Part shown: positions 7,052 through 57,780 of the stretch, one piece after another
Position numbering within the stretch: the stretch's first letter is position 1
Layout: each line of letters begins with the position of its first letter
DNA from: Candidatus Parcubacteria bacterium
GTDB taxonomy: Bacteria; Patescibacteriota; Minisyncoccia; Phycocordibacterales; UBA918
Length of the DNA: 64,000 nt
Reading direction: 5' to 3'
NCBI GenBank assembly: GCA_046050355.1
Contig: JBJOPW010000001.1
Location: 67,858 to 131,857 of the forward strand
The notes under the pieces: model-generated
The model's database searches: none
What the model saw: only the letters and a program-made list of their open reading frames with translations
Told to the model about the DNA's origin: nothing
Made by a program: the position numbers and the translations under genes

Positions 7052-7052
7052 A

Positions 7053-31900: not shown

Positions 31901-31907
31901 ACGTAGC

Positions 31908-31921: not shown

Positions 31922-32028
31922 GCATAACAATTGAAGACGTCTCTCATATCCCCATTACCAAATCAAAACAAATAAGATGTGTGATTTGTTTCAGCATGAG
32001 TCTGCTAGGATTTACAAACTTGATGCAG

Positions 32029-32105: not shown

Positions 32106-32124
32106 ATGCGCTAGTTTGGAGATT

Positions 32125-32154
32125 CTAGTTGGTAATGTTCTTAACCCAACCAAA
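32125..32154 (-). pseudogene. Relic or alternative gene 3' end encoding FGWVKNITN-stop, a duplicate of the last 9 codons of the Fn3 gene
   Basis: Minus strand TTT GGT TGG GTT AAG AAC ATT ACC AAC TAG versus the real end TTT GGT TGG GTT AAG AAT ATA ACT AAT TAA. All differences are synonymous third positions. The relic is in frame with the real stop. Confidence 0.5.
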
Positions 32155-32229
32155 AAGTAAAACAACAACCGTGAGGTTGTATGATTTTACTTTGTTCCAA
32201 CTTTCTATTCCTAATGAAAGTTCTGGAAC

Positions 32230-32288
32230 CTTTTGGTGGATTAAGATATAACTAATTTAATTAGTTATATTCTTAACCCAACCAAAAG
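32230..32288 (-). repeat. Long imperfect hairpin (~26 bp) whose 3-nt loop is the TAA stop codon of the Fn3 gene
   Basis: The left arm (32230-32256) is the inverted copy of the last ~10 codons (32260-32288). Pairing checked base by base: 2 bulges, 1 mismatch. Confidence 0.7.
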
Positions 32289-33750: not shown

Positions 33751-36700
33751 TTATGGTGAGACTGGCGTAAAGACGTTGATACCAGAGTGAGGCGCACTGT
33801 TCACCCCAAACGGTACCTCAATTCCCCAGAAGATGTCCGTGGTTACTGGTGGCGTTGGTACGGTCGGTTTACTGAGATTAACATCAAGTGCTACTGGAGT
33901 TGAACTTGAGAGGAGTGAGCAGACGGCACAGCCACTGTAGGTGAACGTACTCGTAGCAAATTTTTGTTTATTGGCTGGAATCACTGATGAGGCGCCATCA
34001 CTGAGATCAGTTCCCTCTACTTCGATATCAAATGGTACGTTACCAGCATTTGCAATAGTCGTTGTTGCATTATAAGAACCGGTATCAGCTTGAGGGGCCA
34101 AAGAACCGTAGTTAATACCAGAATTTATACTCAGTGATCTTACCGTAAGTAGTTCAACGGCCAAGCTATCAGCAAAATCATATCCGCCACTATTATCAAT
34201 CACTTCAGTGAAGGCGAACCACTCAGCTGCGCCATCATCTGAAGGAGTTGCAAAGAATTGTATATCAGCATAACAAATTAAGTTACAGTTGTTGCCTGTG
34301 CACTGCAGATTACATTGATTACTGGTATCAACACGGTAACAATTGTTGTCATCAGGTGTACATGATGAGGTACCGGACGCGGTTTTGTAGAAGGTAGTCG
34401 TAGCCATTTTAATATCACTCGCACCGTTAAAGTCGGTAATGGTTGTCGTGGCGTAAATGCGGGTGGTTGTTCCTGGTAGCAATGCAATGTCAAACCCGTC
34501 ATTGAGGTTGACTGTGCCAATCACCGGATCAAATTGGAGACCAAGTTCAGCCACTTTAGCGTAGTAGTCGATTGGAGTTGAACCGTTTACCACGCGGAAA
34601 CAGTAGTTATCAGAAGCATTGTTAGTCGGAGTAATCACATACTCAAGTTCGGTGTAACGATCTTGATTAACTGATAAACCACTAGTCATAGTAGACGGAC
34701 TTTCAACAACCGCACCAGCACTAAACTGACCATTACTGGTAGTAAGCAAGTCGGTAGTCGCTTCACCGTCGGTAACGTTGCTGGATACCTGCATACAAAC
34801 GGGTGACGATCCGCACGATGCCTGATTTGGTACGGCTGCAAAGCTACCACTACTGACCGCTTCACAACTCGGAGCACCACCCTTGGCGGCATACTGGAGC
34901 CGGTAGGTCTGTCCTGTCACATCGAGACCAGAATTCTCTATGCCGATACGTAGACGACGAGTGACATTTGGCAAGCCACTACCTAAAGTATTCTCCGCAG
35001 CGACCCACGATGCACCACCGGCAGTTTGTTTGGCACCAAAGGAAATACCGGGATTAATCGGACCTCGTCCGCTCACCTGGTAGCTATCCCAGGCGCCATT
35101 TTGTACCCAGAAGGTAAAGCCCATACCACCACTGGTATACGAACTATCGGTAGCGGTAGTCGACGCTACAATCGAGCCAGCAGCATTATAGAGGTACACA
35201 TCAATACGATTGCTGGTTTGCCAATCAATTTCGACCAGATACCAACCAGTAGCAAAGGTGACCGTGGTAGACGCCAAGCGGGTACCGGAAACATCGTTAT
35301 CAGTTACATTCTTCGACAGTGAGAGGCGGTCTGTTCCAAACAGTTCAAGACACACTGCGTAGTTATTATTATTGGTGCCGGGAGTTTGTACACCAAATAG
35401 TGCACAACCTTCATCGGCTGATCCCGTTGTAGTATCGACGTATTGGCGATATCGAATAACTTGACCCTGCGCTGTTAGACTGCCGGTACGGAAGATACCA
35501 TCAGTGGTTCGACCTGACTTATTTAAGGCTTCAAGCGCATAGCTACCACCAAAGACTGGCGCGGTATCGGTCTGGAATAATGTCGTATCGCCACTGTACT
35601 CAGTAATATTGTTATCTTCAAAGTCGTCACTAAAGCTGAAAGTGGCAGCCGCTGAACTTGAACTGGTTGAACTTGCATTTCCAAAGTACGCAAAGACATC
35701 AGTATATGCATTTGCCGCTAGACTCGGCACCTCTACCCACACCACGGCTTCAGTACTCGCCGTGTAACGATCAAGCCAGAAATCAAGTGGCGTCACCCCG
35801 TCAATACGGGTAAAGCGAAGATCATCAAAGTCAGATTGCATCGCACTATCGTACGGTACGACAATCTTAACCGTGGTGGTCGAGAAAGTGGTAGCGGTAA
35901 TGTTTTCGATGCGGACTCGCTGCCGATTACTCCATGACAAGTTATACCACTCACTATTTGGCGCTCCTTCTCCCCCATCATCAGCACGCCAACGGTAGCT
36001 GGTCTGTGAAGTCAAAAGACAACCACTATCGTCAAAGCGTATTGAACCACATGCGTCAACACCGTCACTGTCAAACGCTTCTCCACCGATGTTGCCGTAG
36101 CTACCACTAAAGCGCCACGCATTACTGGTACTACCGACCAGTGCTGTATTGGTACCATTCCAACTATTTCCAGCATTAAAGCCAACGGCGGTAAATATCT
36201 TTGACGCATTGGCATTAAGCGCTGTGTCAGCCAATGTGATGAGGGTACCACCGTTAAGCGCTAGATTGTAGTAACCGTTACTCAAATTGGTGATAGTAGG
36301 CGTATTGATGAAATTAAGACCGGTGCTATTGAGGGCGTTAAAGCGATAGTACTGGGCATTAAAGGTACCACCAGTGACAATAAACGCGTGGGTGCCGGTA
36401 CTGATGTTACCAATGGTAGTCGAGGCACTTAGTCCACCAATGATACTAAGAGTACCGCTCTGGACAGTGGTAGTTGCATTTTCATTGATCCGAACGGTTA
36501 CTGCTCGCTCAGTGCCAGTAAGTGCAGTACCATCAAAATCGGTAGCGTACGACCAGTATTCACTCGTGGTGGCAACGGTGAAGTCTCCATAAATATTGAG
36601 GGCTCCGTCAACTACGCCATGGTCTTGTGAGTAGAGTGAGGCCCCCGCACCGGTAGTGGTGGTAGCCACCGAACTATTCCACAGGCGTAGATCAGCGACA

Positions 36701-48700: not shown

Positions 48701-51700
48701 TCGCGGGTAATAGTTGGTGAAGAAAAATCAGCATCATTATCAATGACAACCTCATACGAGACAAGATCACCAAGCTCATCAATCGCGGCAAATTCAAAAG
48801 TTGGTGTCGTCGAAGCGAGTTGCCGATTATCAAACGGTGCGGTCAACGTCGGTTGTAGCGGTGCCGCATTAGTGATCAATCGTGGGTAGGTACTGTAGGT
48901 GTTGAGAATGGCTCCATCTGCATACACAAGACGGAAACAGTAACTTGTATTGGCTGTGGCTCCATTGTTTTGTAACGTAAAATCCCATTCTGTTTTTTGA
49001 CCAACCAAGAGCCCATTCCGATTGAGAATGGTTGGATTATTTTCTTCGTATGTCTCACTAAAATTACTATCAGAAAGTAACGTGCTTGGCAGGACTCGAC
49101 CGTCACCAATCAACTCTTCTGCTTGTACAGTATAAAATCCCGTTGCATTTGTCTGGTTGTTATATTCGGTCTTTAACCAGCTCGCTGAGCGCGCTACTGA
49201 GGCAATTCTAAACTCGTCGATCCGGCCTCGGTGATACGTACCACCAGCCGTTGATACAGAACCAAGCGCAAAACCGGTCAACGCTACGTTTGGATTATCT
49301 GACGTGGCCGCCGTTGCGATGGGCGCACCGTCTAAGTAAATACCCATGAAAGTGCCGCCAGTACCGTGTGATACGAGCCCAACGTGTGTCCACTTATTAC
49401 GATAACTCGTGTAGTTTGTTGTGAGTCGTCCCGGGGCACTACAACAGGTACCAAAGTCCCAGTATAGTACCGCATCTCCCCATGGTGCATGGGCAGCAAA
49501 CCGCTCTGCTCCAGCAGCAGTAAAGCTGAAGAGGTTTGAGTTCTGTGTTTCAGCAGTACTCACATTATTCCAGGCGGTGACGGTCACGGTCGCTGTGTTC
49601 CAGCTCCAACCAGTATTGGTTAAATAGTCGTTAACGCCATCAAAATTCAAACCATTGCCAATTTTTGAACTAGTACTGTTCGTGGCCACCATGCCTGACG
49701 ACGTTAGATTGCGTCCATTACTGGTACTATCAATCATGGCACTGGTCGGATTGGTGCCTAAGTGATACACCGCTTGGTAGCCATTATTCCAGACGTTATT
49801 TCGACCATATGTTGCTGTGGCCGCATACCCACTTGCGCCACTATTGCCATAGTAGATATAAAATCCAGTGTCGGTGGTGGTTGAGAGACTTGGTGCTTTA
49901 AAGTGAAGTTCACCAGTGTCAGCACTAGTATCAATTGCTACAAGCTCATACGGCACTTCGGTGATACCGTCACTCGTGGTAATACGAATATCGTCACCAT
50001 CACTCTGCACAGTATCAAAGAAGACGGCTGGCAAATCATCGAGATTTACATACACAGGAAAGTCAGTCACTGCTGATGATGTACCAACGAGCGCATTATC
50101 AACTTCAATCTTAATTCGACGTCCCCAAGCCGCTCCATACCAATCGCTACCAACAATCGAGTTGGCATAGCCACGCCAGAGAGCTGTTGTACTACCGACC
50201 GCACCGACATCAGACCACCCGGTAGCGATACTACAAGAAGAACCAGGAGCATACTGAAGTTTAAAAGCAGAAGTACTGGTTGCCAGTGGTACATTTGCAC
50301 CCTGAAGTGATAGCCGTAGTCGCAGGACATCATTAAGACTCACCGCTTCAGCTGAAGACAAAGCGACATTTTCGTTGACGTCAGTACCGCCGACTGGCCA
50401 GGCATCAGTTGGTGTGAAAAAGCTACCATTCGCATACCAGCGAAAGTTACTTTGCACTAATTTTGGTTTACGTAGCCAGGCGACTGACCAATCATCAAGA
50501 CTCGCACTTTGTGAGCCGAATGTAGTTAACGTAGCTTCAAGACAAATCTGACTATAAGTCGAAGTCGAAAGACTGGTGAGGTTGAGAGGCATCGCACTCT
50601 GATCAAATCCCGTACTATTACCCGGAAGTGCTCCATCAGGGATATAGGTATCACAGGTAGTGGTATTAGTATATTTGAGTTTCACCGTCACATCAGTACC
50701 AAAAGGTTCCGTTGAACCAAACGACAAATCACCCCAGGTATTTTGATTGGGGACAGACGTAAAGACGATTGGCTGGGTCGTCACGATACCCTGTGTGAAG
50801 GTGTAGCGTTTGGCGGCCATCTCGAATGTTTCGTAAGGGGCGCCAATAATTGAGGAGGGATTCGGAACTATAGATTGTTTGGTAGACCAATTGGTTCCAT
50901 TCCAATATGTCGACTCAATTTCATCACCCGCCACCGCATCATCATGACTAATTGCGACAATGGTGCCATCCCCAGCACGTTCTGTTTGTACCCAAAATAC
51001 ACCAGCCCCAGAGCCGACACCAGACACTGTTTGTTGGGCATCCCAGGTTGATGTCGCAAAGGTACGGTAGCGTAGGTTTGTGGTATCAGAGTATGTACCG
51101 AGAATATAACCTGACCGACCGGCAGTAGTTTCGTATTCACAATCAACCGGTCGACCAGCTTGTGAGTTACCGGTAATAGTAAAGTCGGTAAAAGTACCAG
51201 TCCAGACACTACCATCCCAGCGTATGGCACCAACCCGCGCTGAGTCATTGATGAAACAAAGCGTCATGAGATCAGAGTTAGGATCGGCAGCCAGTGAACC
51301 AAATTCAAAATCGTTGAAGAGTGCCTGCGTACCATTACTACTCCAACCCAAACTAGGACCGAGCCAGGTCACATAGGCAAAGTTGTTGTTAGTACCATTA
51401 GTCACGGCTATCACCGCTTGGTCGCCAGAAGACTCATACTTCACGCCAATACCGGCTCGCAGTTCTTGACCAGCCTGTACTGAACCAAGGACCCGACTAC
51501 TTATCCAACCAGTACCATCCCACACCAGCGCTTCGTAGTTGTTCCCTACCGCCGCGCCACTATCGCGCACGACGAGAATCATTTCATCTGAAGTTGGATC
51601 AGACGCAATTTCGACATGGTTACAGACATTGACGAGGCTAGTGGTGATACTACTGGTGGCTGACCACGTACTCCCATTCCAGGTGCGGTATACCGGATCT

Positions 51701-54700
51701 TTAGTGTTACTACAAGACACCACCATCGCGTCACCGGAGACACTTTCATAGCCCACGGCAATACCCTTGCGCGTGACATTCGAAACAGTGCTCGTAATCA
51801 GTGTCTGATTACCCCACGAACTGCTCGTGGCATTGTACACCTGCGCATACGTCGCATTAGATTGGTCCATCGTCACGAGAATGTATTCATCCCGCTTTAC
51901 TCCAGCAGCTGTACGGACCCAGTTAATAGTACCGCCGACCGCAATCGCCGACTGCTCAATCCCCCAGCTCGTACCATTCCAGAGGCGATACCGTGGGGTG
52001 GTGTTGGTACCATCACCATAAGCCAACATAATCTCAGAACTCACCGTTGAGTTTACAGTGACATTATTATTCACATCATTGGCCGTCGCGCCAAAGAGCG
52101 TATTCGTTTGGAATTGTCCACTGGTAGTTTGGTACCAGTTTGCAACGGTATCTCCTGCATTAACAGTAAAGCTTTGTGTTGTTGAATAATCACCAAAGCC
52201 ACCTGAACCAGTAACGTCTTTCGCGCGGACCCGCCAATAGTATGTCGTTAGGTCTGTGAGTGTGTCACCTGGTTGTAACTGATAGCGGATTTTATTGCCT
52301 TCGGTAAATGGCGCAGTGTCACCACCACTCACGGTGTTTACAAATCCTGCATCGGCACTAGAAACTCGCACGGTAGCAGTCGCAAAGGTTGAGGAGGTAG
52401 AAATTGAGAACTCGTATTCAATATCAGAAGCTCCGTCCGGGTCACTCGCGGTAAATTCAAAATACGGTGACGTTGAAGCAAACCGGGCATTATCAAATGG
52501 AGTTTGTAATGTTGGTGCTGCCGGGCGGAAATCAAGCGCAGCTTTTTTCCATAGCATGAGGGTAGCTGGAGTAGTAGAGCTTACCTGACCAGCCGTTGCT
52601 TCTTGCTGACTTTGCACTGACACGATCTGTCCCGCGCCAACCCCCTCAAGCAAGAAGACGAGATTGCCTGACGCATCAGTGTGTCCGTTTTGGTTACGAA
52701 TGTAGTTTGATTTGGTTTGGGCACCCGTTGTCGTCGCCCCATTAACTGTTACGGTAATACGATTGTTCGTACGAGCAGTAGCACCAGTCACGGCCACGTT
52801 GTACATGAGGAAATAGTCACCACTTTGACCAACCGTAATCTGATGACTGTTAGTGGTTGATGAATAGGTATAGGTACCGGTATCGTGTGCCAATGGTACA
52901 TTGAAGCGTGTTGAGGAAGCGTTTGTGTTATTGAAGTTCATTCCCGTCGTACCGTTGAAGTAGTTACCAGTGACGGCAATCACACCCGCAGTTGGTAACT
53001 TTTCAATCACAATCGAACCAGCAAAGCCTGGTGTCACAACGACGTTCCCGCCACCGGCTTCTTGTTGTGCTGTTACGGTGAGCACACTATTTGTACTACT
53101 GGCAACCACCACCCCGGACCAATGAATACTCGAGTCGCCATCACTTTCGGTAGCTGCCGTTTCCATGTACCCCTGCATAAATTGCGCACCTGGCACGGCC
53201 ATACCATTGATAAGTACTCGTCCAGTGACGTTTGTCTGCACTGTATGGTTTACTCCCGTAAGTGGAATATTGACATGGACCATGTAGGTACCAGTAGCGG
53301 ACAACGTAATATTTTGTGGCGATACAGTGTTTGAGTGTACAAAGCCGGTGTCTTGTCGAGTCTCAATCCAATCCAATGCGTTGGCCGTGGCAGTGTTGAG
53401 ACTGGTGGTTGCCGTCGATCGAGTGGTTGTGGCCGCAAAGACAATATCGCTACTTGTCATGTACTCAACATACAGTGACGCCAACCCAGATACATTAACG
53501 GTGTCGCCGGCATCAATAGTATTTAAGTTTTCGACAAACACTTCAATGTAGTCATTCGCATTGACATCAGTAAGGAGAAACGCGACGTTTGATGATGACT
53601 CTGATTGTGCACCGGCATTTTCGATATAGCCACTACGCCCAAGACCTTCTTGTACCGCCACGCCGTTTTTACGTACCTCAATACCCGAACGAGTGCGACT
53701 CGTGTTGGCATCGGTTCGTTGTACTGGCAAGTTTACTGCGACAAAGTAATCACCACTTTGACGGAGGGTTACTCGCTGTGAGTTTGATGAAGTTGAGTGA
53801 GTATAGTAGTAGTTATCAATTGAACTCGTCGACCACTGCATCGGACTAGGTACACTGTTGAGGTTCGTTCCAGCAACGGTCCGCGTACCCTTAAACCACC
53901 CGATGTTGTTAAGCGCATCAGACGCAATCTGCCACTGCCTCAGCTCTGAGAAGCTGTCCATAGTGAGTGGCCCAAGGAGATACATATAAGGACTAACATC
54001 AGGCGCATCAAAGGTATACGAGAAGGTACGTTCGTCGCCGACATTCATTGTCACGTTTGACCAGGTTATAAGACTATACTGTGGTAGTGCCGTAATCGTC
54101 GCCCCCTCGAGACCCTCGATGATAAAGCCACGTGGTACTCGCTCGGTGATATCACCGGTGTAGGTACGGTTGGCTTTGACCTTAAGCTCTACCTTATATG
54201 GTGCGGGTGGGTAGATACGGGTAGGTGCCGTACGAGTGATATCAAATGGGATATAGTCACGCACTTCAAAGGAGTCAGTAATCTTGTGTACGACTTCCCC
54301 GCTTACGTTTAGATGTTGTAGCTGAATAGTGTACTTACCCCATTCGCCCGTATCTTTAAAGGTAGCCAGGTAGTCTGGCACATCAGTAACGTTGTTCGCG
54401 TTACACGAACCAGATTGCGACACTGGCACTTCGAAGATTGCTCCCTTTGGATCGATAATCTTCATCTCTAAGTTCGCATCACAAATCGTGTCGCCACTAT
54501 CAGTCAAGGCAGCGAGATTGAGCACTACTTCCTCGTTCGGGAAGTACATGCTCTTCTTGGTGTTTACAGCCAAAAGCCCCCAGTAGAATTCAAAAGTGTC
54601 GGTGAACTTTTCACCATTTTCAAGTACCTCAACGGTCACTTCGTACTTTCCTGGTGCGAGCGTATACGGCAGTTCTTCAACTTGCATTGACCAGGTGAGG

Positions 54701-56121
54701 TCATCGTAGTATTTGATATCAAACAGGGCTGGAATCTCAGTCCCGTCGGGATTCTTGATACTCACCCGATCCACGGCAAAGGTATTCTCAGCAAAGATAG
54801 AACGGAAGATGCGATTGAAGAAACCTTGCTGTGGATCGTACGACAAGGTAAACATCGGTGACTTACCAAGAACTTGGTCCAAGTCAGCATTCACAAGTTC
54901 ATTGAGACTTGGTGCCTTCAGATCTCGTTCGTAGCCAATGGCATCGGTTGGCTTTTCAAAGTCTGATGATTCGTAAAAGCGTCCTGAGGTCACATCAAGC
55001 CATACACCATCAACAAAGACAGCTTCGGTCTCAGCTTCAATGCCTTCGTAGGCGACTTTGACCCGAAGGTTTGAGAGGTCATTACTGTATGGCGAAACAG
55101 CGAGGGCCACGAGGAAGTGGTCACCATTAAGGCTATTTGAAATCTCACCACCAACGTCAATCACGGTACCAGGGAGATACGTCGCACCCGCATCAAGTGA
55201 GTATGACACGACGAAACGCTGGATAGCACTACCAGGTTTCGCTTTGGCCGCTAGTGAGAGTCGTAGTTGTACCGTATCTAGTACCGTGCCGTTGGTGAAC
55301 TCAGGCAACGCAAAATTATCAAAGGTCAGCGACCGAGTTTTACAGCCAGCTTCGACGAGACAAGGTTCCAGGCCAAAGAGGTCAGTGGTGGTAGTACCAA
55401 CTGCAGCAGGTGATTCAGGAGTACTCGTCGTAGCCCCATCGCTAATAGTCTCAGAGGCGTCACTTGGTGAGTCACTTGCTTCCGTTGGCGTTGCTGTCGT
55501 TACCTCAGGTATCTCTGGAGTAGATGCTTCGTTTGGCGCAGAAGCTGGTTCTATGTCAGGCGCAGTTGTATCTGGTGCTACTTCCTCAACCACCGGCACC
55601 GCATCGGTGACCGGAGTCGTTTCATCAAATTGTGCGAGTGGATAGGCTACCGCCCGCATGGATGTCTCAAGCGGCGTATCACTCGGCACTGGTTCGGTTG
55701 GTGGTGTTGATTCAGTTGATGGCTCGGTAGCTGGAGTTTCAGCTGGTGGAGTATCAGTAGTAGCACCGTCTGAAGCAGCTCCATCATCTGGCGTACCGGT
55801 TGGCGGATTTTCAGTTGGCACAGCAGGAGATGGCGTTTGTGATTGTGTTGGTTCTACGTACTTGAAGTGTGCAGAATTGGCATTGGTGAAGTTTTGTAAG
55901 ATACCATCACCATCAACATCTTGAATCAAAACCTCATTCGGATTATCAAAGCCATCTGCCACTACACCTCCTGGTACAACCAGCAATTCTTCGGTCGTAT
56001 AGACCGTTCGGTCAATGTACGAGTACGCCAAAAAGCCACTGATACAGACAAATACCAGCAGAACCCGCAGAGTAAGGCGGTTTAGCTTAGGAATTACATG
56101 CGACACAACTCTAACGCCCAA
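33751..56121 (-). CDS. Giant secreted surface protein (7,456 aa): N-terminal anchor, PT-rich linker, Fn3-like modules, two 7-repeat WNGSxW arrays, three DUF2341+LamG/ConA-like modules, Gly-rich blocks, beta-helix-like repeats, WxL-like C-terminal module
   Basis: Uninterrupted 22.4-kb ORF. The track start is a TTG at 56121, with an alternative GTG at 56106. The stop lies 18 nt before the next gene start, so the two are probably co-transcribed. Confidence 0.85.
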   Translation of the reverse strand: MGVRVVSHVIPKLNRLTLRVLLVFVCISGFLAYSYIDRTVYTTEELLVVPGGVVADGFDNPNEVLIQDVDGDGILQNFTNANSAHFKYVEPTQSQTPSPAVPTENPPTGTPDDGAASDGATTDTPPAETPATEPSTESTPPTEPVPSDTPLETSMRAVAYPLAQFDETTPVTDAVPVVEEVAPDTTAPDIEPASAPNEASTPEIPEVTTATPTEASDSPSDASETISDGATTSTPESPAAVGTTTTDLFGLEPCLVEAGCKTRSLTFDNFALPEFTNGTVLDTVQLRLSLAAKAKPGSAIQRFVVSYSLDAGATYLPGTVIDVGGEISNSLNGDHFLVALAVSPYSNDLSNLRVKVAYEGIEAETEAVFVDGVWLDVTSGRFYESSDFEKPTDAIGYERDLKAPSLNELVNADLDQVLGKSPMFTLSYDPQQGFFNRIFRSIFAENTFAVDRVSIKNPDGTEIPALFDIKYYDDLTWSMQVEELPYTLAPGKYEVTVEVLENGEKFTDTFEFYWGLLAVNTKKSMYFPNEEVVLNLAALTDSGDTICDANLEMKIIDPKGAIFEVPVSQSGSCNANNVTDVPDYLATFKDTGEWGKYTIQLQHLNVSGEVVHKITDSFEVRDYIPFDITRTAPTRIYPPAPYKVELKVKANRTYTGDITERVPRGFIIEGLEGATITALPQYSLITWSNVTMNVGDERTFSYTFDAPDVSPYMYLLGPLTMDSFSELRQWQIASDALNNIGWFKGTRTVAGTNLNSVPSPMQWSTSSIDNYYYTHSTSSNSQRVTLRQSGDYFVAVNLPVQRTDANTSRTRSGIEVRKNGVAVQEGLGRSGYIENAGAQSESSSNVAFLLTDVNANDYIEVFVENLNTIDAGDTVNVSGLASLYVEYMTSSDIVFAATTTRSTATTSLNTATANALDWIETRQDTGFVHSNTVSPQNITLSATGTYMVHVNIPLTGVNHTVQTNVTGRVLINGMAVPGAQFMQGYMETAATESDGDSSIHWSGVVVASSTNSVLTVTAQQEAGGGNVVVTPGFAGSIVIEKLPTAGVIAVTGNYFNGTTGMNFNNTNASSTRFNVPLAHDTGTYTYSSTTNSHQITVGQSGDYFLMYNVAVTGATARTNNRITVTVNGATTTGAQTKSNYIRNQNGHTDASGNLVFLLEGVGAGQIVSVQSQQEATAGQVSSTTPATLMLWKKAALDFRPAAPTLQTPFDNARFASTSPYFEFTASDPDGASDIEYEFSISTSSTFATATVRVSSADAGFVNTVSGGDTAPFTEGNKIRYQLQPGDTLTDLTTYYWRVRAKDVTGSGGFGDYSTTQSFTVNAGDTVANWYQTTSGQFQTNTLFGATANDVNNNVTVNSTVSSEIMLAYGDGTNTTPRYRLWNGTSWGIEQSAIAVGGTINWVRTAAGVKRDEYILVTMDQSNATYAQVYNATSSSWGNQTLITSTVSNVTRKGIAVGYESVSGDAMVVSCSNTKDPVYRTWNGSTWSATSSITTSLVNVCNHVEIASDPTSDEMILVVRDSGAAVGNNYEALVWDGTGWISSRVLGSVQAGQELRAGIGVKYESSGDQAVIAVTNGTNNNFAYVTWLGPSLGWSSNGTQALFNDFEFGSLAADPNSDLMTLCFINDSARVGAIRWDGSVWTGTFTDFTITGNSQAGRPVDCEYETTAGRSGYILGTYSDTTNLRYRTFATSTWDAQQTVSGVGSGAGVFWVQTERAGDGTIVAISHDDAVAGDEIESTYWNGTNWSTKQSIVPNPSSIIGAPYETFEMAAKRYTFTQGIVTTQPIVFTSVPNQNTWGDLSFGSTEPFGTDVTVKLKYTNTTTCDTYIPDGALPGNSTGFDQSAMPLNLTSLSTSTYSQICLEATLTTFGSQSASLDDWSVAWLRKPKLVQSNFRWYANGSFFTPTDAWPVGGTDVNENVALSSAEAVSLNDVLRLRLSLQGANVPLATSTSAFKLQYAPGSSCSIATGWSDVGAVGSTTALWRGYANSIVGSDWYGAAWGRRIKIEVDNALVGTSSAVTDFPVYVNLDDLPAVFFDTVQSDGDDIRITTSDGITEVPYELVAIDTSADTGELHFKAPSLSTTTDTGFYIYYGNSGASGYAATATYGRNNVWNNGYQAVYHLGTNPTSAMIDSTSNGRNLTSSGMVATNSTSSKIGNGLNFDGVNDYLTNTGWSWNTATVTVTAWNNVSTAETQNSNLFSFTAAGAERFAAHAPWGDAVLYWDFGTCCSAPGRLTTNYTSYRNKWTHVGLVSHGTGGTFMGIYLDGAPIATAATSDNPNVALTGFALGSVSTAGGTYHRGRIDEFRIASVARSASWLKTEYNNQTNATGFYTVQAEELIGDGRVLPSTLLSDSNFSETYEENNPTILNRNGLLVGQKTEWDFTLQNNGATANTSYCFRLVYADGAILNTYSTYPRLITNAAPLQPTLTAPFDNRQLASTTPTFEFAAIDELGDLVSYEVVIDNDADFSSPTITRESNADFSQFTNIASPSERSQYSSGQTIQFVPNTGLTNGVTYWWRVRAKDDFGSNTYGSWSEPRSFTVNSATTLTTWFQTTGDQFNTNSLNDALANVSTNDVGINTSFTAATTTTTEIDYDNRAIGNAWGSISFNQNVTSGTIRHYVEYEVSSNNFALVPDTDLPGNSAGFASSPISIAALDTTTYNVLRITSVFSGNATLPRLLDMTVTWSLKIEPPTHLTLFDNAKTATVTPAFTFTTIDPQADDLQYEIQISTTQDFAAPTTFMSGVDAGFSNVTTPADTSPFNSGNTIRYQTQAPLTNSVTYWWRTRARDPGGSNSWSNYSTPFSFTVDTATNVSVWYQTTGEQFSTNDTVDIETTLGGAQVSSVINGVMVAYAEGTAQAPQYRTWNGSAWSAPISADTVSAQIRWTRLKAATTRPEYALGTLGTDLDINIQIYDAITESWGNIFEIVNSATESTKRRYDIAYETVSGKLMAVACLGNDAVYATWDGSSWSATSSLVLANTNDCEWVQMASDPVSNEIIAVFRHTNTGTPDYEALVWNGSSWGNSNRFGDVSANTNEGMVIEYEESGDQAVLALPNGTVNMPWKTWNGSTWSATNTVALGNVMTWGSLKRDEGTDRMMLCYMDADTDIGIVPWTGSAFGTFTELTITGNDNRGLPADCDFQTTQGTDGDVVIAYSDTVAARYQTYSFGTGTTSGEFSLDVINNSWRFQTVRGGDGTVHALAFDDGSNPDRYDTSRWNGSVWTARENFSSSPSIAAQPFDGSLTIAAQIYPNFTSASIRSTAINFADGASPRWERVRFTDTTPGLSNVLYRVYYETTPGTFALVPDSALSGNAAGFTNSPINISGLDKNIYNVLKLDAELLCDSGNCPSVQDWSVEWSEGLTISGSIFDYDQLTALASGTVAVAVNGVLQSGKTAQVAAGTSTQQVVYTAAGTSTFTVPSGVTSVTVKSWGAGGGSGASYSTNGGGAGAGGGGGFVQGNVTTIPAENLTVRVGGGGAGGTAATSTGGGGGGGYSGVFRTSTPLLVAGGGGGGGGGVTNIKYVGAGTACGVNGAACTPTIPASTAVNDLYIAVLHSRTDTAHTCTTNCTGWTEFSTQAGSAGEGRVSVWYYRRTGAAPANPTFAGPATESYTGRIWAFRGAAITGNPYDVLGTNTAVTVANTVFTGSNLSSTVPDAMVVHVGGSMDNNTWGPGGGSCNTPNAADANFYAANANGTDNSVFLCYRDNPISSAGSLGAPTMTQATLGADVGRYFTFALRPQATDGLVLGNGGAGGGLTGETGSTTAASGGGGGGTQVAGGAIGGSNATVGAAYQGGLGAGTAGGVGAGGAGGIGGGGTGGSGSTTAILAGGGGGGAGYYGGGGGANASDFYTHNPGAGGGGGSSYTALTGVSATSTISGSGTQAANTADPDYSAGVGVGAAAVTSITNGSSGGNGKVVVTWSTVASAGTWSIPNVSAVAGDVITVFIQNASGTDEAVAVTVYDGSGDITGMQLSKRHLTIGSNDGTTVTNANLALYANAANEDIFYSASGGSTISLCAESTCSDARLRVLSGATYAPGADTSVINFQNNGTFAPATSTFRISNVWDNQSTFTVGQSTIIFTATTSTQTPQNASSSLAFYNVTFGESSGNATFTLTKPLITYGNLTVNYGTLARGTTTLNIGGNLSLGANGTFSGLGTTTFDGTGSSLWGDAKAANLSTNIGNVVIDGTAKTITLSGNVGSESLTIGNDDTLNASGSGFNINVLRHWTNNNAFVPQSGTVSFIGTSTGVIARGTSAFNNLSFTGVGGNWSFSTSTLALNGTLTIATGTVTLPTGTTTIGGSFLNTGGQFAHNNGEVRMTSSVAGRSITTSGTPFLNNFYDLVFTGAGGWTFTGAATTTRDMRITAGTVTMPTTTLAVGGDFVTTGSGAFAHNNGEVILLVQDADTLSTNGSSFNNLRVRGAASGWYNDSWSARKKITIQGSKVMGSMTNFPVYLNLADLGDDFFTGITTGGADIRITASDGVTEVPLEVVSVSTSTKRGEVYFRAPSLATSTSADFYVYYGNSGATAYASTSAFGAQNVWTNGYQAVYHLDSDPAGITVDSTRFDRRLSQVGAMDATDVVAGVLGNAIDFDGVNDYLTNAAFAWVNASNTITVTAWNNVTTAETKAANLFGFTESGGQRVATHGPWSDAILYWDFGAAGVPGRVSSSYASYRNKWTHIGLVSPGAGGGNMSIYFDGAFITSSTASDPNVTLTGFSLGSLGASQYHDGRIDEFRLASVVRDAGWLGTEFNNQSTSTSFYSTSTAEARFARVFTDTNTTILGNYIADAGASATFPSGILSVGGSFDNNGAFSANNGTVRFNSTAGSETIAVGSSTFATLEFNGAGGDFTVTESATATVAINLTNATQFTLQSGLSLTASGTFSQTMSGTSTTWTGSLLRFIGTDHSMHTKSFGGDVYGTLQVANDADIAMWNSSATTYITSDTGSIYSQDHAAVDGDLNIYGNYIRSTGTEHWAYATDFDGTVLGSPRQVDVRVASGSSVGFTAASLNFTGTSSASTTIAALTGSFSLNATNSIVTARYFSVASTGSAGFGLLSSTTLSQFDDGYIDVTPGTSGLRIDGTTVSTNPAKQLLRVAFATTTAGTGANVTFTGTSTSFVWFKEGSGNLYGEAFDSGDANPGAIRFDDSSYLITVSGRVLTSDGGASLGAPVCDGVTPNVRVVVNSGSYTAQTSCNVTTGAYSFSNVAFIGDPKITVYLNTNGGVSGAAVTKTPTSDITNLDVYAYQLITRHEGAVPLSIADLTLFDTASDTDMRFSATTTPSTSLTVLSNNGLFVWASTTFTPGGPVTLAGNASSSAFEGSLTLATSSQFIAAGTDTHSLAGRLVVGQNATITAASSTFVFTATTTGKSITAATTQNFHNLSFTGVGGAWNIGAPLSLTGDMTISAGTVTGTNNISLLNGQLTGNGTLSLGSGTTTISRTNTLGGTTPWTFANLVLGNGSVAGTTTPASAATTTVSGRLTISAAHVYDVGSSPINLTGSGTVFSVSGTYRPGTGLVTYSGANATVLGTTYYDLAVGASVGSSTFTTSGVGILVNRNLTIGNGTASSTFTTNQSDPVLTVSGDVFVASASTLSLSDTATTTIAGSIDNNGTVLANGGIAAFTGSGTHTIAMGTSPLARTRINGTGSFTVSESATSTVSFTLQNHALFRVATGTTLALAGTFDNQLGGAATDFPGTLYFYGGSSIAVNQKTTADTYSTLGVASDTRIRLWNSSATTYNALGGIYSQDHNNTNGLLHVYGTFAETSASDYWSYATDFDGTALSGSERVVTVAFASGAAYNLTGGSLSVIGAAGASTSITNQGAGTYGVIIGGSGTANWNYATVRNASTSGIIFTGTPIVTDFSRVDIEVGATGGTGVTIGSTVLNNNPAKNLTNNHFATSTGVSAATNVTATGTAVSSWRFTNHTGSIDGEVYDNDPAGDPGYIVWDDSAALITVSGNVYSDEGVTVSPVCNGVTANIVLRVAGLTTYSTPCNATTGAYSIPNVAFSPADTLTVYIDNNIRKAVTVSADPISSISDMHLYENRVIVRHENTSPLSIADMAVWDSSDDGDILFTAVDAGSDTLSLPADQKLLIWTSKTFEPNGNVTLSGGGGGGAQDGTLEALANATWRAQGNETHSIAGSIIFGAGAVFTAGQSTTTLTTTGAGRTIDVNSGAFYNLYITGSGSWTVADSALTTTRSYTQSAGTVTFGSGTTTIGASFNATGGSFSMPGTGIAFVSSSTGNIVRFDDAMVPALYFTGAGGAWSMTDTNATTTGSFIISNTGTVTLPSGALAVGGSFTNASGTVTHNTADLYMTSASAASITTRGSDLFALRKTDVGTINITDASATFRDDVVIASGSLVAATNTLSVGGSFLVTGGTFSHASGTVLFNATASGKTINASTSPFYNVQFASASGGWTWQGNATTTNNLTLTTASAFTKEAGTSLSIGGVFTNLVGGGATTWTNTIISLTNSAPYTINTKTTGGDDYATLSINVADLRLWNSSVATTTTGAGASLYSQDHGVVDGALNIYGDFTVATTSEYWSYATDFDGTALTGTERAVTVRINENATTTVQSGTLSIIGGLSASTTIGNISTGTHAFIVTGGTFNAQYYRFNALNSTGLNFINTPTITNLSNGYYNLALNGGTLITLADTALNANASKIFTAVGFNAGNSWNGTNTALVGSTSNAWRFSGSYGNIGGEAFDSDGVDACGSIRFDDSGCLLTSQTSYRWRADDGGEGAPNSEWYNLSWSNRQRVRIENITATTFSTTTVKIVVPYDSAMQSDFDDLRFTRIDGVTPLDFWLDRYTASTEAVVWVEVPSLAANAYTDVFAYFGNASSTSSSSAAATFSFSDDFEDNNITEYSGDTTLFQTDTAPVFGGSYALEALNKSGRTTDGIFRTGSLTAQGQVIRYRQYVDTTTGSADEGCALFGVQTPGTNNNNYAVCLELFGTDRLSLSKNVTDNDVSGTRLASTTVTFATGWYLVEIDWQTSNRIDVYLYNAAGSIVASTTATDSSYTSGGMGFTFWVQNGAWDSYQVSGRGPINPGISFGAKQTAGGASWVAAENTLGSGLPNVTRRLRIGIENSGLDVTGQTYRLQYAAKGGAPSCEAVSSGSFAAVPNQASCGSSPVCMQVSSNVTDGEATTDLLTTSNGQFSAGAVVESPSTMTSGLSVNQDRYTELEYVITPTNNASDNYCFRVVNGSTPIDYYAKVAELGLQFDPVIGTVNLNDGFDIALLPGTTTRIYATTTITDFNGASDIKMATTTFYKTASGTSSCTPDDNNCYRVDTSNQCNLQCTGNNCNLICYADIQFFATPSDDGAAEWFAFTEVIDNSGGYDFADSLAVELLTVRSLSINSGINYGSLAPQADTGSYNATTTIANAGNVPFDIEVEGTDLSDGASSVIPANKQKFATSTFTYSGCAVCSLLSSSTPVALDVNLSKPTVPTPPVTTDIFWGIEVPFGVNSAPHSGINVFTPVSP
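35075..35940 (-). other. DUF2341-like + ConA-like module 3
   Basis: WSNRQRVRIENITATTFSTTTVKIVVPYDS...DLRFTRIDGVTPLDFWLD...VFAYFGN, then a lectin-like domain ending GFTFWVQNGAWDSYQVSG. Confidence 0.5.
36000..41870 (-). repeat. Tandem in-frame super-repeats (~2.3-2.4 kb each; 2.5 units) of beta-helix-like + YSQDH...YWSYATDFDGT + IRFDDS + Cys-pair domains
   Basis: The anchor encoding YSQDH sits at 41302-41316, 38926-38940 and 36619-36633 (spacing 2,376 and 2,307 nt). The flanking protein sequence aligns across the three units. Confidence 0.7.
41870..42860 (-). other. DUF2341-like + LamG/ConA-like module 2
   Basis: WSARKKITIQGSKVMGSMTNFPVYLNLADL...DIRITASDGVTEVPLEVV...FYVYYGN, then IDFDGVNDYLTN...RIDEFRLAS. 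Confidence 0.55.
44460..45850 (-). other. Two glycine-rich blocks (45590-45850 and 44460-44900) flanking a Cys-containing ~230-aa insert
   Basis: GGGSGASYSTNGGGAGAGGGGG...GGGGGGGGG, then ...GGAGGGLTGETGSTTAASGGGGGG...GGGGGGAGYYGGGGG. The DNA is GGN-codon rich. Confidence 0.6.
46440..47570 (-). other. WNGSxW repeat array 2 (7 units) within the giant ORF
   Basis: YRTWNGSAWSAP, ATWDGSSWSAT, ALVWNGSSWGNS, KTWNGSTWSAT, VPWTGSAFGTF, (degenerate unit), SRWNGSVWTAR. Confidence 0.5.
49130..50130 (-). other. DUF2341-like + LamG/ConA-like lectin module 1
   Basis: WGRRIKIEVDNALVGTSSAVTDFPVYVNLDDL...DIRITTSDGITEVPYELV...FYIYYGN, then LNFDGVNDYLTN...RIDEFRIAS. Confidence 0.55.
50870..52030 (-). other. 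WNGSxW repeat array 1 (7 units, propeller-like) within the giant ORF
   Basis: YRLWNGTSWG, YRTWNGSTWSAT, ALVWDGTGWISS, VTWLGPSLGWSS, IRWDGSVWTGT, YRTFATSTWDAQ, TYWNGTNWSTK. Confidence 0.5.
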
Positions 56122-56146
56122 AAGATAACTTTTGGGTTACCTATAG

Positions 56147-56181
56147 TATAACGCGCCAGTACTCGGTACTGGCGCGTTATA
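56147..56181 (-). promoter_or_regulatory. Perfect 16-bp GC-rich hairpin between the cohesin-like gene stop and the giant-gene start (terminator/attenuator/stability element candidate)
   Basis: tataacgcgccagtac-tcg-gtactggcgcgttata. No U-run follows on the minus strand, so it is not a canonical terminator. Confidence 0.45.
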
Positions 56182-56210
56182 CGAATTTTATTGTGGATTG
56201 TTTGTGCTCA

Positions 56211-57755: not shown

Positions 57756-57780
57756 AAGAACTATCTGAATTACTACTAAA

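What the first reader, a model, noticed from the sequence alone, without database searches (positions are those of the whole stretch)
33751..56121. 22.4-kb single ORF (7,456 aa) occupying about a third of the window
The reading frame is uninterrupted from a TTG at 56121 (alternative GTG at 56106) to the TAA at 33751.

The predicted protein has:
- an N-terminal signal anchor and a Pro/Thr/Glu-rich stalk;
- Fn3-like modules ending in YYWRVRAKD-type strands;
- two 7-unit WNGSxW arrays;
- three DUF2341-like + LamG/ConA-like lectin modules;
- glycine-rich blocks;
- long beta-helix-like GxxTxxG repeat regions;
- several (F/Y)(R/Y)W(R/Y)xDxG beta-sandwich modules also found in the 2,053-aa protein;
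- a WxL-like tail.

The lectin-like and propeller-like content and the surrounding anchoring genes point to a host- or substrate-adhesion fibre. Genes of this size are rare. In the little I know of such cases they are associated with episymbiotic or predatory lifestyles.
Basis: partly seen in the sequence, partly recalled or inferred. Interest (0 to 1): 0.7.

Follow-up and report, generated by a model that had tools for sequence, protein, structure and literature searches.

The report
Giant lectin-studded surface protein gene
The 22.4-kb reading frame is a real, conserved gene of an ultra-small Paceibacteria (CPR) bacterium; it encodes a 7,456-residue membrane-anchored surface protein carrying several sugar-binding-type modules, and it belongs to a widespread but uncharacterised family of similarly huge proteins, so its size alone is not exceptional.

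Summary
The ORF is exactly as described: window 33751-56121, minus strand, 7,456 codons, one stop. It is not an assembly artefact. There are no long DNA repeats. Two independent assemblies reproduce its last 8.3 kb at 100%. Orthologues in other Paceibacteria genomes stay open and collinear for more than 6,000 codons, with saturated synonymous and low non-synonymous divergence.

A wider search found about 2,070 relative clusters. They include full-length collinear homologues of 6,000-7,600 aa.

Architecture, from N to C terminus:
- one N-terminal hydrophobic anchor and a Pro/Thr-rich stalk;
- Ig/Fn3-like modules;
- two predicted 8-bladed (not 7-unit) beta-propellers, whose best Foldseek matches are Photorhabdus PLL/PHL fucose lectins;
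- three DUF2341 modules, two followed by LamG lectin folds;
- a Gly-rich block;
- Thr/Gly-rich repeat regions (beta-helix not tested);
- a conserved tail of three Ig-like domains.

The 'WxL-like tail' is not supported.

One new observation: between orthologues that are otherwise 80-95% identical, both LamG cores are replaced (about 27% identity), which points to cassette exchange at the presumed ligand-binding modules.

Best reading: a cell-surface multi-lectin adhesion protein, a new member of a known kind (giant DUF2341 surface proteins of Patescibacteria). Function is inferred, not shown.

The parts
33751..56121 (-). Giant ORF: 7,456 codons plus TAA. The start is TTG 56121 or GTG 56106.
   Evidence: Collinear open orthologues. 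pN much lower than pS.
56100..56212 (-). Conserved structured leader between the cohesin gene and the giant gene. It holds a 16-17-bp hairpin (56146-56182), a second hairpin CCCAAAAG/CTTTTGGG that overlaps the TTG, and an outer helix that pairs with GUUGUG, which contains the GTG start.
   Evidence: Three pairs show double compensatory changes among 3 sequences.
56011..56085 (-). aa 13-37: the single hydrophobic segment, either a signal anchor or an uncleaved signal peptide.
   Evidence: Kyte-Doolittle scan: the only window at or above 1.6. The first 50 aa are 98% identical in L002.
55372..55869 (-). aa 85-250: low-complexity Pro/Thr/Ala/Glu/Ser-rich stalk.
   Evidence: Composition. Only 34-52% identical to L002 while the flanks are above 90%.
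53812..55371 (-). aa 251-770: highly conserved N-terminal beta-rich region with weak MG2/Ig-like signals.
   Evidence: 86-98% identity to L002. Weak MG2 hit, E 0.017. 2,070 relative clusters for aa 250-1200.
52552..53805 (-). aa 773-1190: three tandem repeats of about 140-155 aa with a sub-threshold BclA_C (C1q/TNF-like) match.
   Evidence: Self-BLAST. Pfam BclA_C E 4e-6, 27 bits against a cutoff of 38. The profile finds nothing in the PDB.
52162..52539 (-). aa 1195-1320: Fn3/Ig-like module 1, ending in the YYWRVRAKD strand.
   Evidence: Homologous to module 3, which Pfam matches.
50797..52044 (-). aa 1360-1775: W(N/D)GxxW array 1, 8 units, predicted 8-bladed beta-propeller.
49117..50124 (-). 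aa 2000-2335: DUF2341 no. 1 plus LamG/ConA-like no. 1. The LamG core, aa ~2120-2310, is replaced in the L002 orthologue.
   Evidence: Pfam: (Laminin_G_3 E 6e-12; DUF2341 E 3e-5). Cassette replacement.
48487..48870 (-). aa 2418-2545: Fn3/Ig-like module 2.
47707..48057 (-). aa 2689-2805: Fn3/Ig-like module 3.
   Evidence: Pfam Ig_Rha78A_N E 2.2e-8..
46357..47604 (-). aa 2840-3255: W(N/D)GxxW array 2, 8 units, paralogue of propeller 1 at about 40% identity.
44362..45939 (-). aa 3395-3920: glycine-rich block (26% Gly) with a Cys-containing insert of about 230 aa. It is absent from distant full-length homologues.
   Evidence: (Gly_rich_2 E 6e-4).
42862..44034 (-). aa 4030-4420: Thr/Gly/Ser/Asn-rich repeats with a period of about 80 aa. 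A beta-solenoid is inferred only.
   Evidence: No Pfam match.
41872..42852 (-). aa 4424-4750: DUF2341 no. 2 plus LamG-like no. 2, 54-57% identical to module 1. Its core is also replaced in L002.
35962..41874 (-). aa 4750-6720: two and a half super-repeats of about 800 aa, 35-44% identical to each other.
   Evidence: Conserved in the full-length homologues. No family match.
35092..35964 (-). aa 6720-7010: DUF2341 no. 3 plus an unassigned jelly-roll-like domain.
   Evidence: Pfam DUF2341 E 4e-16 and a weak SO2946-like_C hit.
33754..35094 (-). aa 7010-7456: conserved tail of three predicted Ig-like sandwiches ending in the invariant motif YWGIxVPFG...F. It is always C-terminal in homologues.
   Evidence: (pLDDT 87.6).
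26723..28600 (-). 625-aa neighbour whose C-terminal ~295 aa is a paralogue of the giant's last domains.
   Evidence: 27% identity, E 2e-12. Conserved in L011.
29232..33732 (-). Conserved downstream genes: a 4x Fn3/Pur_ac_phosph_N protein that starts 19 nt after the giant's stop, an ABC ATPase, and a MacB_PCD/FtsX permease.
   Evidence: Synteny in L011 at 81-84% identity.
56211..60627 (-). Conserved upstream genes: a membrane-anchored cohesin protein, HSP20, and a Big_6/dockerin protein.
   Evidence: Synteny in L002 at 83-98% identity.
10174..16335 (-). 2,053-aa neighbour that shares beta-sandwich modules with the giant (aa 1877-1986, 2348-2417 and 7029-7198).

Best explanation
A genuine, intact gene of a Paceibacteria (Patescibacteria/CPR) bacterium encodes a 7,456-aa envelope protein.

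Proposed arrangement (inferred):
- A single N-terminal hydrophobic segment holds it in the cytoplasmic membrane.
- A Pro/Thr-rich stalk of about 170 aa carries it through the wall.
- The remaining ~7,200 residues form a long, beta-rich, modular extracellular chain.

Along that chain lie several carbohydrate-binding-type modules:
- two 8-bladed propellers of lectin-like appearance;
- two LamG/ConA-like domains, each behind a DUF2341 domain;
- a glycine-rich block;
- three sub-threshold C1q/TNF-like repeats.

These are separated by Ig/Fn3-like spacers and Thr/Gly-rich repeat regions.

Proposed mechanism (inferred): multivalent, low-affinity binding of glycans on a partner or host cell surface, or on polymeric substrate, tethers the tiny cell. 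Specificity would be tuned by gain, loss and wholesale replacement of the lectin modules, while the N-terminal ~1,300 aa and the C-terminal half stay conserved. Those conserved parts would serve export, anchoring or interaction with the conserved neighbouring surface proteins.

Shown here: gene reality, family membership, domain folds, conservation pattern and synteny.

Inferred only: surface location, glycan binding, the host-adhesion role, and which end is distal.
For: **Gene reality**
- The frame is uninterrupted.
- The longest direct DNA repeat pair is 135 nt at 73% identity, and there are no tandem repeats.
- Logan contigs from two other sequencing runs match window 23220-38360 and 28998-42096 at 100%.
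- The L002 orthologue lies on a 676-kb contig, stays open for at least 6,035 codons and is collinear at 78.5% identity.
- L003 and L001 cover aa 1-1349 and 1419-5073 at about 82%.
- pS is about 0.7 (saturated), against pN of 0.05-0.13 in most 500-codon windows, 0.16-0.18 in two and 0.26 in the two holding the LamG cores.
- Full-length collinear homologues of 5,997-7,622 aa exist.

**Surface and lectin character**
- There is one N-terminal hydrophobic segment and no other.
- Pfam finds DUF2341 three times, Laminin_G_3 and Ig_Rha78A_N.
- The propeller model is confident. Foldseek's top hits are the PLL/PHL and AAL-family fucose lectins.
- DUF2341 is reported in large proteins encoded in archaeal type IV pilus loci that are proposed to act as tip adhesins, by analogy with PilY adhesins (PMC4858521).

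**Specificity tuning**
- Both LamG cores drop to 16-30% identity between backbones that are 80-95% identical.
- The window's cores are 38-46% identical to cores in other MAGs' proteins, but only ~27% to their positional orthologues in L002.
- Modules are present or absent among the full-length homologues.

**Context**
- The conserved island encodes cohesin, dockerin, Ig-like and weak WxLIP_PGBD-like proteins plus a MacB-type ABC system.

**Literature**
- Giant DUF2341/FhaB proteins of Patescibacteria have been proposed as adhesion or host-interaction factors (PMC11809585).
Against: - There is no direct evidence of expression, localisation or ligand.
- About 85% of the sequence matches no curated family and no PDB sequence.
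- Both ends are conserved and the middle is variable. That does not fit a simple 'conserved anchor, variable tip' picture.
- The C-terminal ~890 aa also ends a 1,290-aa protein that has a cleavable signal peptide. The tail could therefore be the cell-attachment end.
- The host of this organism is unknown.
Confidence: 0.6

Rival explanations
1. Structural envelope or matrix component. The protein would be a giant scaffold of the cell's own surface layer or sheath, or of cell-cell/biofilm cohesion. It would be attached at both ends (N-terminal membrane anchor; C-terminal cassette bound to wall or partner proteins). Its lectin-like modules would bind the cell's own wall glycans rather than a host.
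For: - Both ends are the most conserved parts.
- The C-terminal cassette is shared with an otherwise different secreted protein, as an attachment module would be.
- Neighbours carry weak peptidoglycan-binding WxLIP_PGBD plus LytR_C signals, and membrane-anchored cohesins.
- The gene is conserved across a whole class, with about 2,070 relative clusters.
Against: - S-layer proteins are normally much smaller and highly abundant.
- Wholesale replacement of LamG cores between close relatives fits a changing external ligand better than the cell's own wall.
- No SLH, CWB or WxL domain was detected.
Confidence: 0.2
2. Substrate-capture scaffold of a cellulosome-like surface assembly. The giant would bind environmental polysaccharide through its lectin/CBM-like modules and cooperate with the cohesin- and dockerin-bearing neighbours and the ABC transporter to harvest sugars.
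For: - At least two cohesin-bearing and three dockerin-bearing proteins lie in the same co-oriented island.
- LamG/ConA-like and propeller modules are common carbohydrate-binding folds.
- Dockerin-type giant proteins are described in Omnitrophota (10.1101/2023.11.21.568195).
Against: - The giant has no cohesin or dockerin domain and no glycoside hydrolase or lyase domain at E<=0.01.
- No neighbour shows a carbohydrate-active catalytic domain.
- The adjacent ABC system is of the MacB/FtsX type, not a sugar importer with a binding protein.
Confidence: 0.1
3. Contact-dependent effector delivery. On this reading it is a filamentous FhaB/CdiA- or MARTX-like exoprotein that carries a toxic or lytic activity to prey or host.
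For: - Other giant Patescibacteria proteins carry FhaB-type domains (PMC11809585).
- Large unannotated stretches could hide an enzyme.
Against: - No TPS, haemagglutinin-repeat, RTX, protease, nuclease or toxin family matched in Pfam, NCBIfam or PHROGs.
- The C-terminus is a conserved Ig-like cassette, not a variable toxin tip.
- No immunity-like small gene follows. The next gene is a conserved Fn3 protein.
Confidence: 0.04
4. Artefact or decaying gene: a misassembled concatenation of repeat-rich surface genes, or a pseudogene that happens to remain open.
For: - Short-read assemblies break at or inside the gene (L007-L010).
- In one related genome (L011) the locus is called as three ORFs of 2,998, 2,498 and 983 aa, with a frame change.
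Against: - There are no near-identical internal DNA repeats.
- The same order and length recur in several independent assemblies and in distant homologues of 6,000-7,600 aa.
- Purifying selection is strong along the whole length.
- In L011 the downstream Fn3 gene is also split, which suggests indel errors in that assembly.
Confidence: 0.02

Closest known systems
Giant (>4,000 aa) DUF2341/FhaB-domain proteins of Patescibacteria, noted in the Patescibacterium danicum description (PMC11809585)
   Same: Same phylum. Sizes are several thousand residues. DUF2341 modules are present. Both are proposed to act in adhesion or host interaction, and domain reshuffling between relatives is suspected for both.
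   Different: That paper found no full-length homologues for its own proteins, and those carry FhaB-type domains. This protein has no FhaB signal. It belongs to a family with many collinear full-length members and a fixed N-terminal and C-terminal architecture.
Photorhabdus PLL/PHL and fungal/bacterial AAL-family (AFL, AOL, RSL) beta-propeller fucose lectins
   Same: They are the best Foldseek matches to the modelled array (E 1e-11 to 1e-8, TM normalised to target 0.65-0.68 for PLL/PHL). Blades are about 50 aa with a conserved Trp-rich W-x-G-x-x-W type motif (the RSL motif is from memory).
Large DUF2341 proteins encoded in archaeal type IV pilus loci, proposed as PilY-like tip adhesins (Makarova et al. 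2016, PMC4858521)
   Same: DUF2341 occurs in large extracellular proteins that are proposed to be adhesive.
   Different: No pilin-type (class III) signal is seen at the N-terminus, by my reading of the sequence. No pilus assembly genes lie in the window. This protein is far larger.
WxL / Csc cell-surface protein clusters of Firmicutes (WxL-domain proteins plus DUF916/WxLIP proteins)
   Same: Both are gene clusters for several secreted surface proteins in a monoderm-type envelope. Two neighbours give weak WxLIP_PGBD hits and have C-terminal membrane anchors or a LytR_C domain. A W-x-[IL]-x-x-P motif lies near the C-terminus.
   Different: The Pfam WxL domain is absent from the giant's tail and from all 53 homologous tails. 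The WxLIP hits are below the curated cutoff. No LPxTG protein or motif is present.
Giant and 'large' proteins of Omnitrophota (West-Roberts et al., bioRxiv 10.1101/2023.11.21.568195)
   Same: Ultra-small, partner-dependent bacteria devote a large share of a small genome to one surface protein implicated in attachment. Structure prediction is needed to annotate them.
   Different: Those are 10,000-85,000 aa, with numerous transmembrane regions and SecA-DEAD-like domains. This one is 7,456 aa with one hydrophobic segment, and it falls below that paper's 'large' threshold.

Membership tests
Giant DUF2341-bearing surface proteins of Patescibacteria | Encoded by a Patescibacteria genome | tested here: met
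   The closest loci and proteins are named Candidatus Paceibacteria, Paceibacterota, Minisyncoccia, Kaiserbacteria or Patescibacteria. Synteny with L002 holds at 83-98% neighbour identity.
Giant DUF2341-bearing surface proteins of Patescibacteria | Length above 4,000 aa with one or more DUF2341 domains | tested here: met
   7,456 aa. DUF2341 matches three times above the gathering score: 24.8-32.3 and 57.6-59.6 bits against a cutoff of 23.4.
LamG / concanavalin A-like lectin superfamily (Pfam Laminin_G_3) | Profile match above the curated threshold | tested here: met
   aa ~2161-2315: 46.4 bits against a cutoff of 27.6, E 5.9e-12. Copy 2 has no Pfam hit and is assigned only by 54-57% identity to copy 1.
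LamG / concanavalin A-like lectin superfamily (Pfam Laminin_G_3) | Carbohydrate or other ligand binding | not testable with these tools
   Needs glycan arrays or binding assays.
PLL/PHL-type seven-bladed propeller lectins | Beta-propeller fold resembling the family | tested here: met
PLL/PHL-type seven-bladed propeller lectins | Seven blades | tested here: not met
PLL/PHL-type seven-bladed propeller lectins | Conserved sugar-binding residues, or detectable sequence homology | tested here: inconclusive
   Identity is 12-16% in structural alignments. There is no Pfam or PDB sequence match. Binding-site residues were not compared.
WxL-domain surface proteins (Firmicutes Csc/WxL clusters) | C-terminal WxL domain (Pfam PF13731) | tested here: not met
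   No hit at E<=5 for the last 266 aa. None at E<=0.1 in any of the 54 aligned sequences. The tail model matches only generic Ig-like tandems.
WxL-domain surface proteins (Firmicutes Csc/WxL clusters) | Clustered DUF916/WxLIP partner proteins | tested here: inconclusive
   WxLIP_PGBD scores 23.1 bits (7566-9275) and 15.4 bits (9181-10167), against a cutoff of 27.3. The two proteins are paralogues.
Cellulosomal scaffoldins / dockerin-bearing subunits | Cohesin or dockerin module in the protein itself | tested here: not met
   None at E<=0.01 in ten overlapping segments. These modules occur only in neighbours.
FhaB/TpsA, RTX or autotransporter giant adhesins | TPS/haemagglutinin repeats, RTX repeats or an autotransporter beta-domain | tested here: not met
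   No such family in Pfam or NCBIfam.
Omnitrophota-type giant proteins | At least 10,000-30,000 aa, numerous transmembrane regions, SecA DEAD-like domain | tested here: not met
   7,456 aa, one hydrophobic segment, no SecA/DEAD hit.

The most novel reading that the evidence does not exclude
The family would be a programmable host-range device. A conserved giant backbone displays exchangeable lectin cassettes (LamG cores, propellers, the Gly-rich block) that are swapped by recombination within and between CPR lineages. This would retarget the episymbiont to new host surface glycans, much as phage tail-fibre tips are exchanged. The conserved structured leader would control expression of this very costly gene, which takes up about 3% of a ~0.7-Mb genome.
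Probability: 0.3. Interest if true: 0.7.

Novelty: new member of a known kind. Interest (0 to 1): 0.5.

Why it matters
How CPR/Patescibacteria cells recognise and hold on to their partners is largely unknown, and most of them are uncultured.

This gene takes up about 3% of a genome of roughly 0.7 Mb. That figure uses the 676-kb contig of the L002 relative as a yardstick. The gene is kept under purifying selection along its whole length and has relatives in about 2,000 sequence clusters. It is therefore clearly important to these organisms.

The module map gives concrete, expressible targets for glycan-binding tests: two propellers, two LamG domains and the Gly-rich block.

LamG cores are replaced wholesale between near-identical backbones. 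That marks them as candidate specificity determinants, which could be correlated with host co-occurrence.

The result also shows that short-read assemblies and gene callers systematically fragment this family, so its size and prevalence are under-reported.

Tried and rejected
- **Whole-protein homology search.** I switched to segments.
- **PDB sequence searches.** Searches with both halves and with a profile of the BclA_C-like repeats found nothing.
- **Other family libraries.** NCBIfam gave nothing. PHROGs gave only one weak tail-fibre-assembly hit on the Gly-rich block.
- **WxL tail hypothesis.** Rejected at the sequence-profile level. The fold search of the tail gave only generic Ig-like tandems with TM below 0.4. 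The afdb50 library, which might have held WxL models, was unavailable.
- **Beta-helix claim.** There is no Pfam support in three repeat regions. The Ice_binding beta-helix precomputed for P0042, P0046 and P0047 lies in a part of those proteins that is not homologous to the giant.
- **Source contig.** The upstream cohesin protein is not on record as an exact sequence. The HSP20 look-up found contigs that end inside the cohesin gene, so the 5' two-thirds of the gene has no identical independent assembly.
- **Silent LamG donor cassettes.** None are present in the window.
- **Rfam.** No family in the whole window.
- **Pilin-like N-terminus.** Considered and rejected by inspection: there is no G/FTLIE-type class III signal.
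Full report
**1. The observation**

The window contains one open reading frame at 33751-56121 on the minus strand. It has 7,456 codons, a TTG start and a TAA stop. My own translation shows a single stop at the end. The alternative GTG at 56106 is in frame as codon 6. The next gene starts 19 nt after the stop. A frame of this length cannot arise by chance at 48% GC.

**2. Is it an assembly artefact or a dead gene? No.**

- The largest internal direct DNA repeat is 135 nt at 73% identity, and Tandem Repeats Finder reports nothing. The internal duplications are old, at 27-57% amino-acid identity. Collapse or expansion of near-identical repeats is therefore not a concern.
- Contigs assembled independently from two other sequencing runs (Logan SRR35179846 and SRR35355747) match window 23220-38360 and 28998-42096 at 100% without gaps. 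They reproduce the last 2,781 codons.
- Short-read contigs on the other side end inside the upstream cohesin gene. The 5' two-thirds therefore has no identical second assembly.
- It does have orthologues:
  - In a Candidatus Paceibacteria MAG with a 676-kb contig (L002), the frame is open from its start to the end of the fetched locus, at least 6,035 codons. It is collinear with aa 1-6030 at 78.5% identity.
  - Two contigs of another MAG (L003, L001) cover aa 1-1349 and 1419-5073 at about 82%, also fully open.
- Synonymous differences are saturated (pS about 0.7). Non-synonymous differences are 0.05-0.13 in most 500-codon windows, 0.16-0.18 in two, and 0.26 in the two that hold the LamG cores. 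That is strong purifying selection along the whole gene.
- In a more distant syntenic genome (L011) the locus is called as three ORFs of 2,998, 2,498 and 983 aa, with a frame change near aa 6300-6480. The downstream Fn3 gene is also split there, which suggests indel errors in that assembly.

**3. Organism and family**

Named relatives are all Patescibacteria: Paceibacteria, Paceibacterota, Minisyncoccia, Kaiserbacteria and the 'Parcubacteria group'.

An exhaustive HMMER search with aa 250-1200 found 2,070 representative clusters at E<=1e-3, and 964 at E<=1e-30. Seventeen of the best 150 are at least 5,000 aa.

Six of these, of 5,997-7,622 aa, were mapped in 300-aa chunks. They are collinear with the window protein from the N-terminal hydrophobic segment to the C-terminal motif, at 35-58% identity. 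Further members of 7,486 and 6,645 aa turned up in the cluster look-up.

The size is therefore the norm for this family. All five of the six homologues whose chunk map spans that stretch lack the Gly-rich block (aa ~3395-3920), and one (P0117) lacks propeller 1 and LamG 1. This shows modular gain and loss in the middle of a conserved frame.

The literature already notes that 149 of 2.1 million Patescibacteria proteins exceed 4,000 aa, and that 82 of those carry FhaB and/or DUF2341 domains. An adhesion or host-interaction role is proposed for them (PMC11809585). By the definitions used for Omnitrophota, 7,456 aa is below even 'large'.

**4. Anatomy**

| Region (aa) | Feature | Evidence |
|---|---|---|
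| 13-37 | Only hydrophobic segment; no LPxTG anywhere | |
| 85-250 | Thr/Pro/Ala/Glu/Ser-rich; diverges freely between orthologues | |
| 251-1190 | Most conserved part (86-98% to L002); only weak MG2 and sub-threshold BclA_C signals; three repeats of ~150 aa | |
| 1195-1320, 2418-2545, 2689-2805 | Three Fn3/Ig-like modules; Ig_Rha78A_N E 2e-8 | |
| ~1360-1775, ~2840-3255 | Two W(N/D)GxxW arrays | |
| ~2041, ~4462, ~6764 | DUF2341 | |
| 3395-3920 | 26% Gly block | |
| 4030-4420, 4750-6720 | Thr/Gly/Ser-rich repeat regions | |
| 7010-7456 | Tail | |

*DUF2341 and LamG.* Laminin_G_3 follows the first DUF2341 (E 6e-12). The second follower is 54-57% identical to the first but gets no Pfam hit. The third has only a weak SO2946-like_C hit.

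*The Gly-rich block.* It gives a weak Gly_rich_2 hit and a weak PHROG tail-fibre hit. Its relatives carry PF21722 or PF12810 and include pilin-like Patescibacteria proteins, but they cover only about 20% of the block. From memory, such glycine-rich domains form polyglycine-II sandwiches in phage gp38 adhesins and in ALK/LTK receptors. That is a lead, not a test.

*The repeat regions.* They show a period of about 80 aa and two and a half super-repeats of about 800 aa. No family matches them. The beta-helix idea was not tested.

*The tail.* It models confidently (pLDDT 87.6) as three Ig-like sandwiches, which match only generic tandem Ig structures. It is always at the C-terminus of its 71 full-length matches. 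It is 43-82% identical across 86 homologues and ends in the invariant motif YWGIxVPFG...F.

*The WxL claim.* The Pfam WxL domain hits neither this tail (E<=5) nor any of the 53 homologous tails, so the 'WxL-like' label is not supported.

*Sharing of the tail.* The last ~890 aa also terminate a 1,290-aa protein that has a cleavable signal peptide and an Ice_binding (DUF3494) domain. A 625-aa neighbour carries a paralogue of the last domains.

**5. A pattern worth noting**

Between the window and L002, 50-aa windows are mostly 80-98% identical. The exceptions are the low-complexity stalk and the two LamG cores (aa ~2120-2310 and ~4550-4750), which fall to 16-30% identity with indels. The adjoining DUF2341 domains stay at about 52-76%.

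| LamG comparison | Identity |
|---|---|
| Window copy 1 vs copy 2 | 56% |
| L002 copy 1 vs copy 2 | 51% |
| Positional orthologues, whole module | 36-42% |
| Positional orthologues, core only | ~27% |
| Window cores vs cores in a Saccharibacteria MAG protein (L005) and in L004 | 38-46% |
| L001 vs the window type | 81-86% |

This is cassette replacement, not mere fast drift, and it affects both copies together. No silent donor copy lies in the window. If these modules bind the external ligand, the pattern is what retargeting would look like. That link is an inference.

**6. Context**

The gene sits in a co-oriented island of about 55 kb made up of envelope genes:
- membrane-anchored cohesin proteins;
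- dockerin-bearing Ig-domain proteins;
- two paralogous proteins with sub-threshold WxLIP_PGBD hits, one with LytR_C;
- a 2,053-aa protein that shares beta-sandwich modules with the giant;
- HSP20;
- an ABC exporter;
- directly downstream, a 4x Fn3/Pur_ac_phosph_N protein and a MacB_PCD/FtsX ABC pair.

Gene order is conserved upstream in L002 (83-98% identity) and downstream in L011 (55-84%). The giant itself has no cohesin or dockerin domain.

**7. Mechanism**

Most likely (confidence about 0.6) this is a membrane-anchored, wall-spanning, very long multivalent lectin-type adhesin. It would tether the cell to glycans of a partner or host cell or of a polymeric substrate.

- The conserved N-terminal third and C-terminal half would serve export, anchoring or docking to conserved neighbours.
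- The exchangeable middle modules would set specificity.

Which end is distal is unresolved. The conserved C-terminal cassette, which is shared with a signal-peptide protein, could be a second attachment point.

Rivals:
- an envelope or matrix scaffold (0.2);
- a cellulosome-like substrate-capture scaffold (0.1);
- effector delivery (0.04);
- an artefact or pseudogene (0.02).

**8. Novelty and score**

This is a new member of a known kind, the giant DUF2341 surface proteins of Patescibacteria. What this analysis adds:
- the family-wide collinear architecture;
- the 8-bladed lectin-like propellers;
- the shared C-terminal cassette;
- the LamG cassette replacement.

Interest is moderate (0.5). 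The gene is real and biologically important for an enigmatic lineage. But its class is anticipated in the literature, and its function remains inferred.

Noticed in passing
window 56100-56212 (minus strand); L002 6331-6443; L003 533-648: The 89-nt spacer before the giant gene folds into a conserved two-hairpin leader. The first hairpin (16-17 bp, 56146-56182) keeps its outer stem ATAACGCG and changes its inner stem with compensatory substitutions on both arms: 3 pairs among only 3 sequences. The second hairpin overlaps the TTG at 56121. An outer helix pairs CACAAU with GUUGUG, which contains the GTG at 56106. It could be a translational or stability control element, or the terminator of the cohesin gene, although no U-run follows it on the coding strand. 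No Rfam family matches.
   Followed up: partly
window 44362-45939 (aa 3395-3920): The glycine-rich block is a lineage-specific insertion. It is present in the window, L001 and L002. It is missing from all five of the six chunk-mapped full-length homologues (P0116, P0118, P0121, P0150, P0117) whose maps span aa ~3392-3996. It is also the least conserved non-LamG region (56-64% identity). Its Gly-rich parts resemble PF21722/PF12810 proteins, including pilin-like Patescibacteria proteins.
   Followed up: partly
P0042, P0046, P0047 (1,282-1,291 aa) versus window 33754-36423 (aa 6567-7456): The giant's last ~890 residues (53% identity) also end a much smaller protein that has a cleavable signal peptide and an Ice_binding (DUF3494) domain. 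The C-terminal cassette is therefore a shared module, possibly for attachment or assembly.
   Followed up: partly
window 7566-28600 and 56211-60627: The island holds paralogous sets. Cohesin-type N-terminal domains occur in four proteins (514, 582, 377 and 251 aa), and dockerins in three (656, 368 and 251 aa). The 251-aa protein appears to carry both. The 2,053-aa and 402-aa proteins share a C-terminal domain that ends ...Y(I/V)A(V/T)PV(Y/F).
   Followed up: partly
L011 (GCA_041389025.1, JAWKSP010000002.1) 1-14486: In this syntenic genome the giant gene is called as three ORFs (2,998, 2,498 and 983 aa), with a frame change between giant aa ~6297 and 6479. The downstream Fn3 gene is also split in two. 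The cause is either assembly indel errors or real decay. Database entries of about 1,000 aa named 'DUF2341 domain-containing protein' are in part such fragments.
   Followed up: partly
L004 (JAQTVP010000114.1, labelled Dehalococcoidales) and L005 (Saccharibacteria MAG, two ORFs of at least 3,285 and 3,120 aa): These loci hold DUF2341+LamG modules whose LamG cores are 38-46% identical to the window's. The 5.4-kb contig labelled Dehalococcoidales may be a mis-binned CPR fragment. The Saccharibacteria locus shows that other CPR classes also have multi-thousand-residue proteins with these modules.
   Followed up: no
window 1214-1849 (+) next to 1842-3191 (-): An ORF with a weak IS200-like Y1 transposase match (E 8e-7) abuts the queuine tRNA-ribosyltransferase gene at the edge of the window.
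   Followed up: no
L007-L010 (Logan contigs): Short-read assemblies of the same strain break inside the cohesin gene just upstream of the giant gene and at two points inside it (window 38360 and 42096). The family is therefore systematically fragmented in public protein sets. Word-indexed searches returned only pieces under 1,850 aa, whereas the exhaustive search found full-length members.
   Followed up: yes
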